Part shown: piece by piece, positions 3,001 through 12,000 of the stretch
How the letters are laid out: every line of letters begins with the position of its first letter
How positions within the stretch are numbered: the first letter of the stretch is position 1
Origin: Zootoca vivipara
Taxonomy: Eukaryota
DNA: 64,000 nt
Assembly (NCBI RefSeq): GCF_963506605.1
Contig: NC_083278.1
Coordinates: 4,526,001 to 4,590,000, forward strand
Direction: 5' to 3'
Program-made: the position numbers

Positions 3001-6000
3001 GAGTAGAATAAAAAGTGCAAAGAGAAACAAAAAGTGGTGAAAGAAGTTGCCATTATTACTTCTTGTACAGATCAGAAGGTTAGAAGGAAAGCAGACTTTT
3101 CTGGTTGGAGCTATTAATCCAACATGCTTTAAGATATTTTATATTAATTTAGAATAAGTAGAATACATATTTAGAATATTTAATACTATTAGTATTTACT
3201 TTGAGAATACATCCTAAAATTGTATAATAAACATATAAATAAAACATTCTTATTTTGAGTTTTAGCACAAGTCAAAAAAAATTCCCCAGAGTCTACAATA
3301 GTGTGCTCCACTTCAATCCTATTTTAGAAATGCTGCACCACTGAATCAAAAGGTCAATAATTTGGTGATAAGCATCTATTCTTAAGGAAATTCAGGGGCA
3401 AACTTACAATCTTTCTTTTGCAAAGCAGACCCAAAATAATTCTAGTCATTAAATCGTCCTGTGGGAAGGATCCTGGTGTCTTTTTATTTTTTTTGTTGCT
3501 GTTTTAAATTGTGTTTTAAAGCTTCTTGTAAACCATATTGGAAATATTGCAGAACATAAACAACTGTAATAAATGAATAAATAACTTGCAGTCCTACATA
3601 CATATATTATTTACCCAAATAGATGTCACATTTAAAAAGTTGTTTCATTTTAATTTTAAAAAATAATTAAAATATAACTACAGTATAAAAATCCCCATGC
3701 AGAGCAGACAAGAACTGAGCTTTATCTGAACCCCAAACTATATGGAACTCAAAGTACAGATGACTTTACAACAACAAAGTGGCTGTCAGTCCTTGTGTAC
3801 CTTGTAGTAATATATTTTGTCAGCCTCATGCTCTACGAAACCTCTTAACAAGAGTATCCACCTTCTCTCCAAAGCTGAGAAAGCTTTATTAGAGTAGTGC
3901 CAGTACTGATTTCTTACTACTGCCGCCAAACTCAGGTGTACCTGCGCTATGGAAAAATGTTTCAGCCAGTTTTCAGAATCTTTGGTCCCTCCAGGTTGAA
4001 GACTTCTGCCAGCCTTGCTGGGTGATCTACTCAAGGGTGTAGAGACTGCTGGAAGAGACTTACAAGAAAGCAGGGTGGAGTGAGGAATCACAGTGAATAC
4101 ACCATATTCTATCAACCCAAGATTCAAATTTGCCTACACAAAGTATTATCCTCAGCATTCATCCAAAAGAAAATAAAAAAATTTCTTCAGTAGCACCTTA
4201 AAGACCAACTAAGTTTTTATTTTTTTTATTTTTTTGGTCCCTCCACTACCATGGAGGGACCTGGTTTGAACAGAGATATCGGATTCTTATCTCATTATAC
4301 ATGATAAGCGATCTTCAGCCATCTCAACCCTTGCTTTTTCATGCAAAACCATTTGCAGTCGTTTTCGGTCATCAACAGCTATCGGTCCACCACCCTTCTG
4401 AGTGATCCCCCATCCCCACCCCCTCCCCACCCCTTCTCTACATAAGTGCCTGGGGACTCCTATTTCACTGTATCTGAAGAAGTGTGCATGCACACGAAAG
4501 CTCATACCAAAATAAAAACTTAGTTGGTCTTTAAGGTGCTACTGAAGGAATTTTTTTATCCAAAAGAAAGTTGAGAAGGATGGAACACTACATCCTGAAA
4601 TCTTTTGCTTTCAGTTCAGTGCAGTCAGTACTTAAATGAAATGTAATTCCTTTCCCATGTCTCTAGAAAATGGAGTGCCCCTCTCCAAATGGAAACAGGG
4701 CCACATGTAGGCCACCATAGTCTTCTTGCTCACACCAGAATCTGGCCACCATTTCAGGGCTATAATGGTCTGGCAGCCACATTCTGCAACCACTGACACA
4801 CCTGCACTTAATCAACTGACCTGCTTGATTTTTCTTAAAGAAAAGACTAGCTTAAGACTAGCTTTCCCACCCACCCCCACCACCCTCTGTATATATACAT
4901 AAGGGTCTGACTCTTCTGTTTCAAGTGTATCTGACGAAGTGTGCATGCACACAAAAGCTCATACCAAAATAAAAACTTAGTTGGTCTTTAAGGTGCTACT
5001 GAAGGAATTTTTTTATTTTGCTTTAGACTACTGTATGACTTACAAAGTAACCACATAAACATTGTGAATAAATAAAATCCTGTGCATTTCTCTGCTACTA
5101 CAAACATTTGGAAACTAAACAGGACTCTTTTTTGACATGATGAGTAATTATATAAATTGCCTTCAATATATAACTGCCTTAGCTTAGCCACCGATGGAGC
5201 TGACAGTCCATTAACAGGAAAAGCATGCAGCTCAATAACAATGCTCAGCATTTGTACAGTACTTTGAGTCTAATTCCTTGCAATCCCTGTCACCCCCCTG
5301 TGTCCGATGGGGGCCTGAGGCTGAGAGAGAAAAGCGTGGCCAAGGCCATGTGATGCAGTCATGGCAGAGGTGACATTCAAAGCCAGGATGCAAATGCTTA
5401 GCTCAGTGCATTATTTTTATTATTTATTTCAAGTATTTATATACCACTTTTCATCTGAAAATTTCCCAAAGGAGTTCAATAGCCATTGTGTTATGCCTGC
5501 TTGTAAATATGAAGATAACCCTTCTGAGCAGGATAAGGAAAATTTCCCCAGATTCTTATTTATATTCCAGCTTTTCTCCAAGGACCTCAAAGTGGTGCAC
5601 ACACTTTCCCCTCCCCTCTCTGTTTTATCCTCACAGTGACCCTGTGAGGTAGGCTAGACTGAGAGACTGTGAGTGCCCCACGGTCATCTTTGGGGAAGAG
5701 TGGGGATTCAAATCCTGGTTCCCCTGGTCCATCACTCTTGCCAGTACACCACCATTGGCTCTTTTGAAATGTAAAGAATCAAGGTCTAGCTAAGGAATTT
5801 GGCTACTTATGTTGAAATCAGTTGACCTCACAATGGGAGTTTTAGATTTATTAATTTTTTAAAGAAACTTAATTAAATCAAAATGAAACGCTGTTTTAAC
5901 TGTTTTGCACAGCACTGCCTATTTTGTGATAGTGGATATGGTCCCACGTTAAGCACCTAGTCACTCACTTGTTTCCGCTCCGCCCTCATCTGCTCCATTT

Positions 6001-9000: not shown

Positions 9001-12000
9001 ATTTCATGGTGTCTCCTACATTTTCATGTATCATATTAAATTTATTTTGAAATATTCAGTGTTGTTAAGATGCTATACTTTTGAACTGCATATGCAGTCA
9101 ACTGGATCCAGAAGGAATTTAGAGCAAGAGGAAATGAGTTTATCCCAACTGCATGTTGAGTATATGTGGCACATGAATTTGGCTAATTTTTAAAAGCAAA
9201 ATCTAAATATAGAGGCAGAATTCGATCAATTATGTAGTTCTTTACTAAATCAACCCAATGCCCAATTATCCAGGTTGCACACTGAGAACTGTTGTGTCAC
9301 AAAGGTTCATACACATTGTTGTCCTCTTCTCAAGTCTTAGATACATAAACGTCAGGTTACTAAAATATTGACCTTTTTTGCTTGGGCATATCTACGATAT
9401 CGATGCCGGGCTTTTGGACAGCAAACTTTTATAAGCCAGTCTTCTCCTGAGTTGTCACTATCTAAAGATGTTGCTGAATCAGTCTAGAAAAAACAACAAA
9501 CACATTAAAGTGAATGATAAACAATGGAAACTTTCTGCATAGATGGCTTTCCCCAACCAACTAGAACTGCCATTTGTAGAAATGCCGGTTTGTTTAGAAG
9601 CCTACAAAGAATGTTCTTGATAAAATTCTTCTCAGATGTCAACTGCTAAAAGTAATGGGGAAATCCTCATAACTAAATAATCAGGTGTGATCCCTACCTC
9701 TTGCTGAACTGCCCATTCTAGAACAGGGATGGGGAACTTGAGGCCCTCCAAAGAGTTCCTGGGACTACATGCCTCACCACTGGCCATGCTGATGAGGCCT
9801 GCTGGGAACTGAAGGCCATGGAGATCTGGAGGACCAAAGGTTCCCCATCCATGTTTAGAACAATATCATTTATAGAGGGAGTTGGGTTGGGAACACGACT
9901 ACCTCAGTGCTTACCGAACATACGTAAGCTGCAGGGATACATACACCACTTTGAGAAAATCTGCTGTCTACTTCATGGGGGTGGGGGAAGAAAAAAACCT
10001 CTTTGCGTATTCATGTTATCACTAGCAGGGTATTTATAACAATGATGATTTTGCAGCTTCTGATGTTTTGTTGTTTATTATTACATTTTTGTGCTTGTAA
10101 TTATGTATTTTTTCACATGGCTTTATCTATTGAAAGGCGGCTAAGGAATAAAACGATGAATGGATGGGTGTAAAATACAGATACTTTAGATTATCTGTGC
10201 AATTATGTGCATGTTTCCTCAGAAGTCAGCCCCACTGTACTCAATAAGATCCCCCCCCCCAGGTTTAAGATTGGAGCTCGTCACCGTTTGCCCTTTGTAG
10301 TTTTAAGCACACATGTAAATATTTTGCCCAAGCTATGTGCTTTTATGGTTCTGAGACTCTTAGCCCCGAGTTTAAACTTTTATGTCAGTGGTTTCCTCAA
10401 CCTGCCTTGCCTTGTAGATACAAAGGAAGGTCTTATCCCAAAGATGCTTCGTGTGGTTTAAAATCTGCAAGCGACAGAATGTGATGCTTGTACCTTTCAT
10501 GAACTTCAGATACTTGCTTAGATATGCTTTTAGTAGCAATGTTTACTCGTTTTTGGAAGCCAGCAAGTTGCCCAGGAAGCCAACTACACAACTTCAGATG
10601 AAATGTGCAATGGGTAGTGCCTAATACCAGTATATCGGCATTTCTTTTAAATCAGGATTGGTTTAAACTTAAATGGGGCTTATGGTAAGTTATCTTGCCA
10701 GTGGTGTTTTAAGTATTACACATGGATTTTATTATAGTTTTTGAGTGGAAGCATAACTGTAATTCTGCTTCCAGCTGGTTATGGATGGGCAATGCTTCAG
10801 CAGTGCTAAAGAGTCCTAGTGCTCAAATGACCGAAATCTACCGGTAGTTTGTGTGTGACAGACAGCAGAGCCAGAGTCTCAGAAATTCCAGCAGAGGGCT
10901 GAAGCCTCTCTCTGATTGGCTACCCAGCCAGCCTGCCAGGTGGAGCCAGCAGAATTGTGGCATGTGGTTAGGGTTGCCAGACTTAAGAGAGGACAGGACT
11001 TCTCTGCCTTTAATTGCCCTGCTCTCTTTTGAATCTGGAAACCTTAGAGAAACCAGCAGACCCTTTGTTTGGAAATTAAACAAAGGGTCTGCTGGTTTCT
11101 CTTTAAGGTTTCCAGACTCAAAAGAGAGCAGGGCAATCAATTAAAGGCACAGAAGTGCTGTCCTCTATTGAGTCTGGCAACCCTACATGTGGTCTGTATA
11201 TTTTGCATCTCTCAACTATTAAATTCTAGCATTGCTGTTAATTAGTTTATTCCTATCTGCAAAGCAACCTTTTCTGAATATGCACCTTTTCTAGTTAAGA
11301 ACATTGTGTTGCTTTACATGTTACAAAAGTCCTAAAATAAGCTGTTTCCATGTAGCAAACCATACAGAGTAGTAATCTTTGAGGGGTCAGACAGGGTTCA
11401 GGCTGAGAAATAGGGCTTGGTCTGAGATGGGAGGGTGAAAGAGGAGAGCGCAAAATATGGTCTGAAGCTCAACATCAAAAAAACCAAGATCATGGCCACT
11501 GGTCCCATCACCTCCTGGCAAATAGAAGGGGAAGAAATAGAGGCAGTGAGAGATTTCACCTTCTTGGGCTCCTTGATCACTGCAGATGGTGACAGCAGTC
11601 ACGAAATTAAATGACGCCTGCTTCTTGGGAGAAAAGCAATGACAAACCTAGACAGCATCTTAAAAAGCAGAGACATCACCTTGCCGACAAAGGTCCGTAT
11701 AGTTAAAGCTATGGTTTTCCCAGTAGTGATGTATGGAAGTGAGAGCTGGACCATAAAGAAGGCTGATCGCTGAAGAATTGATGCTTTTGAATTATGGTAC
11801 TGGAGGAGACTCTTGACTTGAGAGTCCCATGGACTGCAAGAAGATCAAACCTATCCATTCTTATGGAAATCAGCCCTGAGTGCTCACTGGAAGGACAGAT
11901 CCTGAAGCTGAGGCTCCAATACTTTGGCCACCTCATGAGAGGAGAAGACTCCCTGGAAAAGACGTTGATATTGGGAAAGATGGAGGGCACAAGGAGAAGC

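What the first reader, a model, noticed from the sequence alone, without database searches (positions are those of the whole stretch)
5999..9441. Exon-level internal repeat (D/E)WLI(K/R)(V/L)xCP(K/R)A in the novel protein
Seen: DWLIKVCCPKAR (9441-9406) and EWLIRLRCPRAQ (6034-5999) share 27 of 36 nt. Differences include a synonymous change and conservative swaps (D/E, K/R, V/L, K/R). Both motifs follow an acidic Ser/Thr-rich stretch and precede a basic tail at the exon end. The 10.4-kb exon has a weaker echo (LWDKTFLCIYKARQ). Inference: modular exon duplication under coding constraint. This is the best internal evidence that the gene is real, and the motif is a candidate functional unit.
Basis: partly seen in the sequence, partly recalled or inferred. 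Interest (0 to 1): 0.7.

Follow-up and report, generated by a model that had tools for sequence, protein, structure and literature searches.

The report
Repeated motif in two candidate exons
Two short exon-like stretches 3.4 kb apart, just downstream of a potassium-channel-regulator-like gene in what looks like a reptile genome, share a 12-residue motif that probably reflects an old local duplication, but nothing yet shows that they belong to a real protein-coding gene.

Summary
The two stretches are there as described: minus strand 9441-9406 and 6034-5999, 27 of 36 nt identical. Each lies in an AG/GT-flanked open segment (A 9483..9373, 111 nt; B 6073..5969, 105 nt). Both are phase 0-0, with the motif at the same place in each.

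As a bare match it is ordinary. The window holds 126 self-HSPs of at least 31 bits. Taken as an in-register match between structure-matched exon-like segments it is the top pair, with about 0.008 to 0.3 expected by chance depending on the splice threshold. Seven of the 9 mismatches are transitions (chance about 0.02). The flanks are at random identity.

I read it as an old local exon duplication with constraint on a 12-codon core (confidence 0.45). Coding constraint is not shown. There is no third-position excess, and protein similarity is only mildly above neutral simulation. Pfam, PDB and ESM Atlas give nothing. Splice signals are unremarkable. The "weaker echo" at 10.4 kb is noise.

The locus lies downstream of KCNRG-like and TRIM13-like genes, where mammals carry the DLEU lncRNAs. 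No orthologues, transcripts or repeat library could be consulted.

The parts
9406..9441 (-). Core copy A, 36 nt, DWLIKVCCPKAR
   Evidence: sequence and translation; 27 of 36 nt identical to copy B
5999..6034 (-). Core copy B, 36 nt, EWLIRLRCPRAQ
   Evidence: blastn HSP 6001-6034 vs 9408-9441, 79.4% over 34 nt
9373..9483 (-). Candidate exon A, 111 nt, phase 0-0, 37 codons. Acceptor ...ttttctag| is good. Donor AAG|GTCAAT is weak.
   Evidence: acceptor about 95th, donor about 89th percentile of my rough scoring. Codon-usage score is at the 97th percentile of 893 pseudo-exons. Splice-only rank is 198 of 9,484.
5969..6073 (-). Candidate exon B, 105 nt, phase 0-0, 35 codons. Acceptor ...catcctag| is middling. 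Donor CAA|GTGAGT is strong. If the donor is not used the frame ends 3 codons later at TAG 5960-5958.
   Evidence: The donor is the 4th best of 700 in 13 kb. Codon-usage score is at the 79th percentile.
10402..10464 (-). It is not related to A or B.
   Evidence: similarity at noise level. Donor CAG|GTTGAG is weak. There is an isolated sub-threshold Pfam OSTMP1 match for the surrounding ORF.
12531..12629 (-). Possible first exon: ATG in a G-rich context, 33 codons, donor CGA|GTGAGT, phase 0. Inferred only.
   Evidence: sequence. The donor ranks 14th of 700. The codon score is low, but the model was trained on AT-rich genes.
12300..13130 (.). CpG-rich island with CCAAT/ATTGG boxes at about 13071-13067, 13019-15 and 12988-84. 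It is the likely promoter of the minus-strand unit, and possibly of a divergent plus-strand one. An alternative strong minus-strand donor CCG|GTAAGA lies at 12846.
   Evidence: (GC 0.556 in 12-14 kb)
5847..5852 (-). AATAAA about 105 nt after the read-through stop of exon B. It is a possible poly(A) signal, but such hexamers are common here: 27 in 13 kb.

Best explanation
An old local (tandem) duplication of a short exon, in an unannotated minus-strand transcription unit. The unit would start at the CpG island at 12.3-13.1 kb, about 6 kb downstream of the KCNRG-like gene.

Everything except a 12-codon core has diverged to randomness. The core, [ST]-x-x-[DE]-W-L-I-[KR]-[VL]-x-C-P-[KR]-A, has been kept in frame and at the same place in both exons.

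The most likely reading is that both exons are coding. On that reading the core is a repeated short linear motif in a small, mostly disordered protein. It would consist of an acidic, phosphorylatable lead-in, a hydrophobic W-L-I-x-[VL] face that docks on a partner, a Cys-Pro break, and then a charged helix.

Shown: the sequence match, its geometry, its statistics and the locus. Inferred: common descent, that the two segments are spliced exons, that they are translated, and any binding function.
For: - **Geometry.** Same strand, 3.4 kb apart, both segments phase 0-0. Lengths are 111 and 105 nt. The core is offset 42/39 nt from the acceptor and 33/30 nt from the donor, so both length differences are multiples of 3.
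- **In-register test.** Among structure-matched same-strand pairs outside repeats, A-B scores 44. With 2,164 pairs no other pair reaches 30. With 13,046 pairs the next is 38. With 88,631 pairs the next are 41, 38 and 37. The tail falls about 4.6-fold per 5 units, giving 0.008 to 0.3 expected.
- **Phase 0-0 candidates only.** Among 1,569 such pairs, A-B scores 44 and the next pair 30.
- **Reciprocal best hits.** In gapped alignment among 893 candidates the scores are 47 against 35 and 33.
- **Transitions.** Seven of the 9 mismatches are transitions. Chance high-scoring pairs have a transition fraction of 0.38, so the binomial P for 7 or more of 9 is about 0.02.
- **Nucleotide identity.** Chance pairs scoring at least 36 average 20.2 of 36 identical nt, and only 4.5% reach 27.
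- **HSP shape.** 34 nt at 79% is atypical of chance. Shuffled windows give a mean of 26.5 nt at 89%, and 14 of 187 HSPs are that long and that diverged.
- **No sign of a repeat.** No third copy exists in the window: the best is 23 of 36, within the shuffled maxima of 23-27. No in-window repeat covers 5032-10968.
- **Codon usage.** Trained on the two known ORFs, exon A scores at the 97th and B at the 79th percentile of 893 pseudo-exons.
- **Strand.** No plus-strand exon candidate overlaps either segment.
Against: - **No sign of protein-level selection.** The differences fall 2/3/4 on codon positions 1/2/3. Four of the 5 free identical residues use the same codon, which is odd if the flanks are saturated (rough P about 0.04, using recalled codon usage).
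- **Neutral simulation.** It gives a protein score of at least 44 in 18% (from A) or 9.8% (from B) of stop-free trials, or 11% and 5.5% of all trials.
- **Splice signals.** They do not single the segments out. A ranks 198th and B 84th of 9,484, and A's donor GTCAAT is weak.
- **ORFs.** An ORF over both copies is common for matches of this strength: 23 of 29 and 18 of 23 HSPs.
- **No relatives found.** Pfam and PDB give no match for A or B at E up to 10. ESM Atlas gives no usable hit, with recognition 1584 and 1416 against the 2300 that 91% of known-family proteins reach.
- **Chicken.** Gene lists for the syntenic chicken region name no coding gene between KCNRG and MIR16-1 (passages of PMC10976558 and PMC5586008).
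- **Post-hoc choices.** My splice thresholds and the in-register criterion were chosen after seeing the pair. The finding also comes from a scan of many windows.
Confidence: 0.45

Rival explanations
1. Chance. These are two unrelated open segments in intergenic or intronic DNA that happen to share a 34-36-nt match. The exon-like frame around them is read into common AG and GT dinucleotides.
For: - The match is the weakest of 126 self-HSPs of at least 31 bits in the window. Shuffled windows give 7.5 such HSPs each.
- Score 44 is expected hundreds of times in the six-frame window (P about 1e-7 per 12-mer pair).
- Among all candidate exon pairs the next unrelated ones score 43 and 40.
- The flanks are at random identity, 16 of 60 on each side, as for any local maximum.
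- The differences are spread uniformly over codon positions.
- Splice ranks are unremarkable.
- There are no relatives anywhere I could search.
- With loose thresholds the in-register expectation is about 0.3 per window, and many windows were scanned.
Against: - Seven of 9 mismatches are transitions (P about 0.02 at the chance fraction of 0.38).
- 27 of 36 nt identity is seen in only 4.5% of chance pairs scoring at least 36, and several of those are cryptic repeats.
- The long, low-identity HSP shape is rare by chance: 0.56 per shuffled window over both orientations.
- The match is also in register, in equal phase, on the same strand and within 3.4 kb.
Confidence: 0.25
2. Real duplication, but non-coding. 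A and B are duplicated exons or elements of a long non-coding RNA at the place where mammals have DLEU1/DLEU2. The 36-nt core is kept for a nucleic-acid-level reason, such as a protein or RNA binding site or a splicing enhancer.
For: - The locus is syntenic with a lncRNA cluster. A SPRYD7 exon, a RING/B-box ORF and a BTB_2 ORF lie in the mammalian order (human layout in passages of PMC3616974).
- The sharp island of 75% identity shows no third-position excess and uses the same codons. That fits constraint on the nucleotides themselves.
- Both cores can form the same 5-bp stem, with one double change and one G-U.
- No protein relatives were found.
Against: - Neither the cores nor the exons fold better than shuffles: z = +0.26, -0.83, +1.12 and +0.44.
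- Both flank length differences are multiples of 3 and the frame is open through both whole segments.
- Exon A has coding-like codon usage (97th percentile).
- No mir-15/16 hairpin, the hallmark of the DLEU2 host gene, lies in the window.
Confidence: 0.18
3. Relics of an old interspersed repeat. The two are fragments of one ancient transposon family, of which only the best-kept 36 nt still align.
For: - Almost all other long, low-identity HSPs in this window belong to recognisable repeats. One is the two-copy relic 6694-6928 vs 33196-33427, which lies between A and B.
- A transition-rich divergence of about 25% is what old neutral copies show.
Against: - There are only two copies in 64 kb and no third match above shuffled level.
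- There is no gapped or collinear extension into the flanks.
- Neutral copies should be about 75% alike beyond the 36 nt as well.
- Same orientation within 3.4 kb, and the in-register exon-like frame, would both be coincidences.
Confidence: 0.08

Closest known systems
Tandem exon duplication, often giving mutually exclusive or repeated exons (Kondrashov & Koonin 2001; Letunic, Copley & Bork 2002; both recalled, not read here)
   Same: The segments are neighbouring and on the same strand. They are of near-equal length and equal phase, and the similarity is in register.
   Different: Similarity is confined to 12 of about 36 codons. Neither exon is shown to be transcribed, and no host gene is known. 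Whether both would be included or used alternatively is unknown.
Short linear motifs with an acidic, phosphorylatable lead-in and a hydrophobic core. One example is the SUMO-interacting motif, with core psi-psi-x-psi beside acidic residues or Ser (consensus recalled).
   Same: L-I-K-V and L-I-R-L fit psi-psi-x-psi. An S/T at -4 and an acidic residue at -1 of the Trp are shared by both copies.
   Different: This is pattern matching by eye only. No binding or family test was possible. The LC3-interacting pattern [WFY]-x-x-[LIV] is not met, because K/R sits at +3. AlphaFold2 without an alignment draws a helix, not a strand, over the core, at low confidence (pLDDT 68 and 64).
DLEU1/DLEU2 lncRNA cluster beside TRIM13/KCNRG at human 13q14.3
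   Same: The position is the same: downstream of the KCNRG-like gene, with TRIM13-like, SPRYD7 and (by recall) KPNA3 in the mammalian order. A CpG island there could fire in both directions.
   Different: No mir-15/16 hairpin lies in the window. No sequence comparison with the mammalian lncRNAs was made. The present segments keep an open frame.
OSTM1 (Pfam PF09777), for the 10.4-kb segment only
   Same: There is a weak profile match over 38 residues, at profile positions 154-193 of 240.
   Different: The score of 16.8 bits is below the 25.8 cut-off. None of the 10 neighbouring ORFs matches OSTMP1. No PDB chain matches. The locus is the wrong one for that gene. I treat it as a chance match.

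Membership tests
Tandem exon duplication | Two exons on one strand, next to each other in one gene | tested here: inconclusive
   They are on the same strand, 3.3 kb apart. That they belong to one transcript is inferred. At least one other candidate exon (8032..7949) could lie between them.
Tandem exon duplication | Equal phase and near-equal length | tested here: met
   The exons are 111 and 105 nt and both phase 0-0. The core is offset 42/39 and 33/30 nt from the ends.
Tandem exon duplication | Sequence similarity beyond chance between the two exons | tested here: inconclusive
   Only the 12-codon core is similar. The in-register expectation is 0.008-0.3 per window. Transition bias has P about 0.02. 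The flanks are random.
Tandem exon duplication | Both exons are spliced into RNA | not testable with these tools
   No transcript data were available. Splice-signal ranks are 198 and 84 of 9,484.
Protein-coding exon under purifying selection | Excess of synonymous over replacement change, or a codon-substitution signature across species | tested here: not met
   Between the two copies the differences fall 2/3/4 by codon position. The protein score is within reach of neutral simulation (P 0.055-0.18). The across-species test was not possible.
Interspersed repeat | Further copies, or a match to a repeat consensus | tested here: not met
   In the window there is no third copy, no repeat over 5032-10968 and no extension. 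No repeat library is on hand, so the consensus test is open.
OSTM1 (PF09777), 10.4-kb segment | Score at or above Pfam's gathering cut-off | tested here: not met
   16.8 bits against 25.8. The neighbouring ORFs and PDB show no OSTM1 match.
DLEU2-type miRNA host locus | mir-15/mir-16 hairpins between the KCNRG side and the promoter | tested here: not met
   Rfam gives none at gathering score for the whole window, and none at E up to 1 in 1-19,500.
SUMO-interacting-type motif | psi-psi-x-psi core with an acidic/Ser flank, and binding to SUMO | not testable with these tools
   The pattern is present by eye in both copies. The consensus is recalled. Binding was not tested.

The most novel reading that the evidence does not exclude
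A and B are exons of a real, unannotated small protein gene of sauropsids. It would start at its own CpG-island promoter and sit exactly where mammals have only the DLEU1/DLEU2 lncRNAs of the 13q14 leukaemia deletion region. If so, part of that lncRNA cluster could be the fossil of an ancestral coding gene. The repeated W-L-I...C-P motif would then be its functional unit.
Probability: 0.08. Interest if true: 0.6.

Novelty: new member of a known kind. Interest (0 to 1): 0.3.

Why it matters
If the two segments are duplicated coding exons, they mark an unannotated small gene next to TRIM13/KCNRG. This region is studied intensely in human leukaemia, yet is thought to hold only non-coding RNAs beyond KCNRG. 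That would give a testable handle on the origin of those RNAs.

If the match is chance or a repeat relic, it is an example of how easily a splice-flanked ORF pair with a shared rare-residue motif arises in 64 kb. In that case the 'novel protein' loses its main internal support. As it stands, the evidence suggests duplication but does not show a gene.

Tried and rejected
- **Pfam and PDB.** Neither exon A nor B gave a hit at E up to 10.
- **ESM Atlas.** No usable hit for A or B. Two earlier tries met a busy machine.
- **OSTM1 lead.** The ORF around the 10.4-kb segment matches weakly. I rejected it: none of the 10 neighbouring ORFs matches OSTMP1, there is no PDB match, and the score is below the cut-off.
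- **Third copy.** I looked by regular expressions, by a degenerate 36-nt consensus and by gapped peptide alignment, and found none. The WLIRKL...CLPLPKRA stretch at about 2242 lies in a palindromic repeat. The candidate exon 8032..7949 is at noise level.
- **Extension into the flanks.** There is none, gapped or ungapped.
- **ORFs as evidence.** 'ORF over both copies' is not discriminating: 41 of 52 comparable HSPs have one.
- **RNA structure.** It is not better than shuffles.
- **AlphaFold2.** Each exon was folded alone. Both give helix, break, helix at pLDDT 68 and 64, which is uninformative. No structure search was made on such models.
- **Literature.** Two papers on lncRNAs derived from lost coding genes do not mention DLEU, KCNRG, TRIM13 or SPRYD7 in their main text (PMC5577775 and PMC10195156; find mode).
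- **Spliced model.** All searches were exon by exon.

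
Full report
**What is there.** On the minus strand, 9441-9406 translates to DWLIKVCCPKAR and 6034-5999 to EWLIRLRCPRAQ. 27 of 36 nt are identical. Each stretch lies in an open segment bounded by AG and GT.
- Segment A is 9483..9373 (111 nt, 37 codons). Its acceptor is ...ttttctag| and its donor AAG|GTCAAT.
- Segment B is 6073..5969 (105 nt, 35 codons). Its acceptor is ...catcctag| and its donor CAA|GTGAGT.
- Both are phase 0-0. The core begins 42 and 39 nt after the acceptor and ends 33 and 30 nt before the donor.

It holds only faintly for B. 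The window has no N.

**Species.** I do not take the window for human.
- It carries LINE fragments that I recall as BovB-like, and a reverse-transcriptase and an integrase ORF.
- It has a sub-threshold match to the mir-5429 family, which I recall as described from Anolis.
- Rfam finds only one family at gathering score, a tRNA-like element and nothing SRP/Alu-like.
- Its RING/B-box ORF is clearly diverged from what I remember of the human protein.

A squamate reptile is my guess, from recall.

**Is the match more than chance?** Taken alone, it is not.
- blastn gives 34 nt at 79.4%, 31 bits, E = 0.037 for a 700-nt query.
- In a self-comparison of the window it is the weakest of 126 HSPs of at least 31 bits. 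Shuffled windows give 7.5 such HSPs each.
- At protein level the 12-residue window scores 44 (BLOSUM62). A random pair of stop-free 12-mers of this window reaches that with P about 1e-7 (62 of 572,000,000). That means hundreds of such pairs in the six frames.
- Being inside a 35-codon or longer ORF in both copies does not help. 23 of 29 and 18 of 23 comparable HSPs are.

What is unusual is the geometry.
- I listed all AG..GT segments of 60-200 nt with an open frame and splice scores at least as good as the weaker ones of A and B (my own rough matrices, from recalled frequencies). There were 508 on the minus strand and 385 on the plus strand.
- In all-against-all comparison, every pair at or above 44 other than A-B lies in repeat copies: 9 of the 10 de-duplicated rows on the minus strand. 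The next unrelated pairs score 43 and 40.
- Restricted to phase 0-0 segments outside repeats (46 and 34 segments, 1,569 pairs), A-B scores 44 and the next pair 30.
- I then asked, as a test for exon duplication, for equal phases, lengths within 9 nt and alignment within one codon of register. A-B was always the top pair. Of 2,164 pairs no other reached 30. Of 13,046 the next scored 38. Of 88,631 the next scored 41, 38 and 37.
- From the slope of the tail, 0.008, 0.05-0.1 and 0.3 pairs of score 44 are expected.

These criteria were fixed after seeing the pair, and the finding comes from a scan of many windows. I therefore take this as suggestive, not as proof.

**Is it common descent?** Three features say probably yes.
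1. Seven of the 9 mismatches are transitions. Chance pairs with high protein scores have a transition fraction of 0.38, so the binomial P is about 0.02.
2. Chance pairs scoring at least 36 (n = 442) share on average 20.2 of 36 nt, and only 4.5% share 27 or more. Several of those are cryptic repeats.
3. Chance HSPs under this scoring are short and near-perfect, with mean 26.5 nt at 89%. Only 14 of 187 in 25 shuffled windows are 34 nt or longer at 80% or less. In the real window such HSPs nearly all belong to recognisable repeats.

Against a repeat origin of A-B:
- There is no third copy. The best match is 23 of 36 to the degenerate consensus, against shuffled maxima of 23-27.
- No in-window repeat lies anywhere in 5032-10968.
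- There is no extension. The flanks are 16 of 60 identical on each side, and gapped scores are at shuffle level.
- Two random insertions would not be expected in the same orientation within 3.4 kb and in exon register.

**Is it coding?** This is not shown.
- The 9 differences fall 2, 3 and 4 on codon positions 1, 2 and 3.
- The 'conservative swaps' are what A/G and C/T changes give in the genetic code.
- When 7 transitions and 2 transversions are thrown at random onto either core, 38-44% of trials create a stop. Of the rest, 18% (from A) or 9.8% (from B) reach a protein score of 44. That is a mild signal at best.
- The flanks are fully randomised, so the duplication would have to be old. Yet 4 of the 5 free identical residues use the same codon, which protein-level constraint alone does not predict (rough P about 0.04, with recalled codon usage).
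- In favour of coding: the frame is open through both whole segments, both length differences are multiples of three, and codon usage looks coding-like. On a model trained on the two known ORFs of the window, true coding chunks average 0.03 and pseudo-exons -0.17. That model puts A at the 97th and B at the 79th percentile of pseudo-exons.
- Splice signals alone do not pick the segments out. A ranks 198th and B 84th of 9,484, though B's donor is the 4th best of 700.
- RNA folding gives nothing above shuffles, although both cores can draw the same 5-bp stem with one double change.

**A possible gene around them.** Six kb downstream of the BTB-domain gene lies a CpG island (12.3-13.1 kb) with three CCAAT/ATTGG boxes. 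On the minus strand it contains an ATG followed by 33 codons and a GTGAGT donor (12629..12531, phase 0). A second strong donor lies at 12846. The segments at 10464..10402, A and B can all be read in phase 0 after that ATG. If B's donor is not used, the frame stops three codons later and an AATAAA follows about 105 nt on. None of this is evidence by itself: open phase-0 segments and AATAAA are common here. I did not build, search or fold the joined model, and every search was exon by exon. The 10.4-kb 'echo' is noise. The weak OSTMP1 match of its ORF (16.8 bits against a cut-off of 25.8) is isolated, and I take it for chance.

**Locus.**
- The ORF 23759..22488 (-) has RING and B-box domains.
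- The ORF 20213..19461 (-) has a BTB_2/T1 domain, and a second ORF follows at 19167..18892.
- 32241-32468 (+) matches SPRY domain-containing protein 7 of PDB 7ccb at E = 3e-29.
- An ORF at about 44.7 kb (+) reads, by my recall, like the start of importin alpha-4/KPNA3.

This is the order KPNA3, SPRYD7, TRIM13, KCNRG of human 13q14.3. In human the next things are the miR-15a/16-1 host DLEU2 and DLEU1, both non-coding (passages of PMC3616974). Chicken gene lists for the syntenic megabase name nothing between KCNRG and MIR16-1 (passages of PMC10976558 and PMC5586008). Unnamed LOC genes would not appear in such lists. The window has no mir-15/16 hairpin. The miRNA host region therefore lies beyond coordinate 1, and the CpG island is not obviously the DLEU1/2 promoter.

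**Homology searches.** Exons A and B have no Pfam family and no PDB chain at E up to 10. They have no usable ESM Atlas neighbour. No vertebrate sequence could therefore be consulted. AlphaFold2 on each exon alone gives a disordered start, a helix over the W-L-I core, a break at Cys-Pro and a second helix. The pLDDT values of 68 and 64 carry little weight.

**Mechanism, as far as I will commit.** The most likely account (0.45) is an old tandem exon duplication in which a 12-codon core is kept. If translated, it would be a twice-repeated short linear motif: [ST]-x-x-[DE]-W-L-I-[KR]-[VL]-x-C-P-[KR]-A in a small disordered protein. The hydrophobic W-L-I-x-[VL] face would be the contact. The conserved S/T at -4 with acid at -1 would be a possible kinase-dependent switch. 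This resembles acidic-flanked hydrophobic motifs such as SUMO-interacting motifs (recalled consensus). It does not fit the LC3-interacting pattern.

The rivals are:
- chance (0.25);
- a duplicated non-coding element of a DLEU-like lncRNA (0.18);
- relics of an old repeat (0.08).

**Verdict.** The duplication reading is plausible. The coding-constraint claim and the echo are not supported. The existence of the gene is open. Interest is modest unless orthologues or transcripts confirm it.

Noticed in passing
window 18892-23759 (-), 25873-26076 and 32241-32468 (+), about 44.7 kb (+): Gene order as at mammalian 13q14.3. It comprises a RING/B-box ORF (TRIM13-like), a BTB_2 ORF with a second exon (KCNRG-like), SPRYD7 exons (PDB 7ccb, E 3e-29) and a probable KPNA3 first exon. 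CpG islands lie at 24.5-26.2 kb (head-to-head promoter) and 44-45.5 kb. The names TRIM13, KCNRG and KPNA3 are recalled.
   Followed up: partly
window 11431-12149, 48133-48647, 55213-56039; 56139-56696; 41883-42401: Three copies of a LINE 3' part (BovB-like by recall), a reverse-transcriptase ORF (RVT_1, E 9e-23) and an integrase-core ORF (rve, E 1e-11).
   Followed up: partly
window 10840-11380, 481-620, 1981-2190: Palindromic elements with ORFs on both strands. The first gives sub-threshold Rfam matches to several miRNA families (mir-5429 at 49 bits against a gathering score of 80). They are probably hairpin-forming transposon relics.
   Followed up: no
window 918-978 (-), with relatives at 16421-16532, 27126-27234, 48019-48081, 51130-51232, 61791-61916: A tRNA-like element (Rfam tRNA 32.9 bits) that belongs to a multi-copy SINE-like family in the window.
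   Followed up: no
None of the 10 neighbouring ORFs matches OSTMP1, and no PDB chain matches.
   Followed up: yes
window 9406-9441 and 5999-6034 (-): Both cores can form the same 5-bp stem: GGCUU/AAGCC in A and GGCUC/GGGCC in B. The stem is kept through one double change and one G-U. The folding energies are no better than those of shuffles.
   Followed up: yes
window 6694-6928 vs 33196-33427: An old two-copy direct repeat (two collinear HSPs of about 77%) lying between the two candidate exons. It shows that diverged repeat relics of this age are present in the interval.
   Followed up: no
window 7949-8032 (-): Another AG/GT-flanked phase 0-0 open segment between A and B. It has an acidic run followed by F-I-A-L at the same exon position as the W-L-I core. 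Similarity to A and B is at noise level (ranks 618 and 265 of 893).
   Followed up: yes
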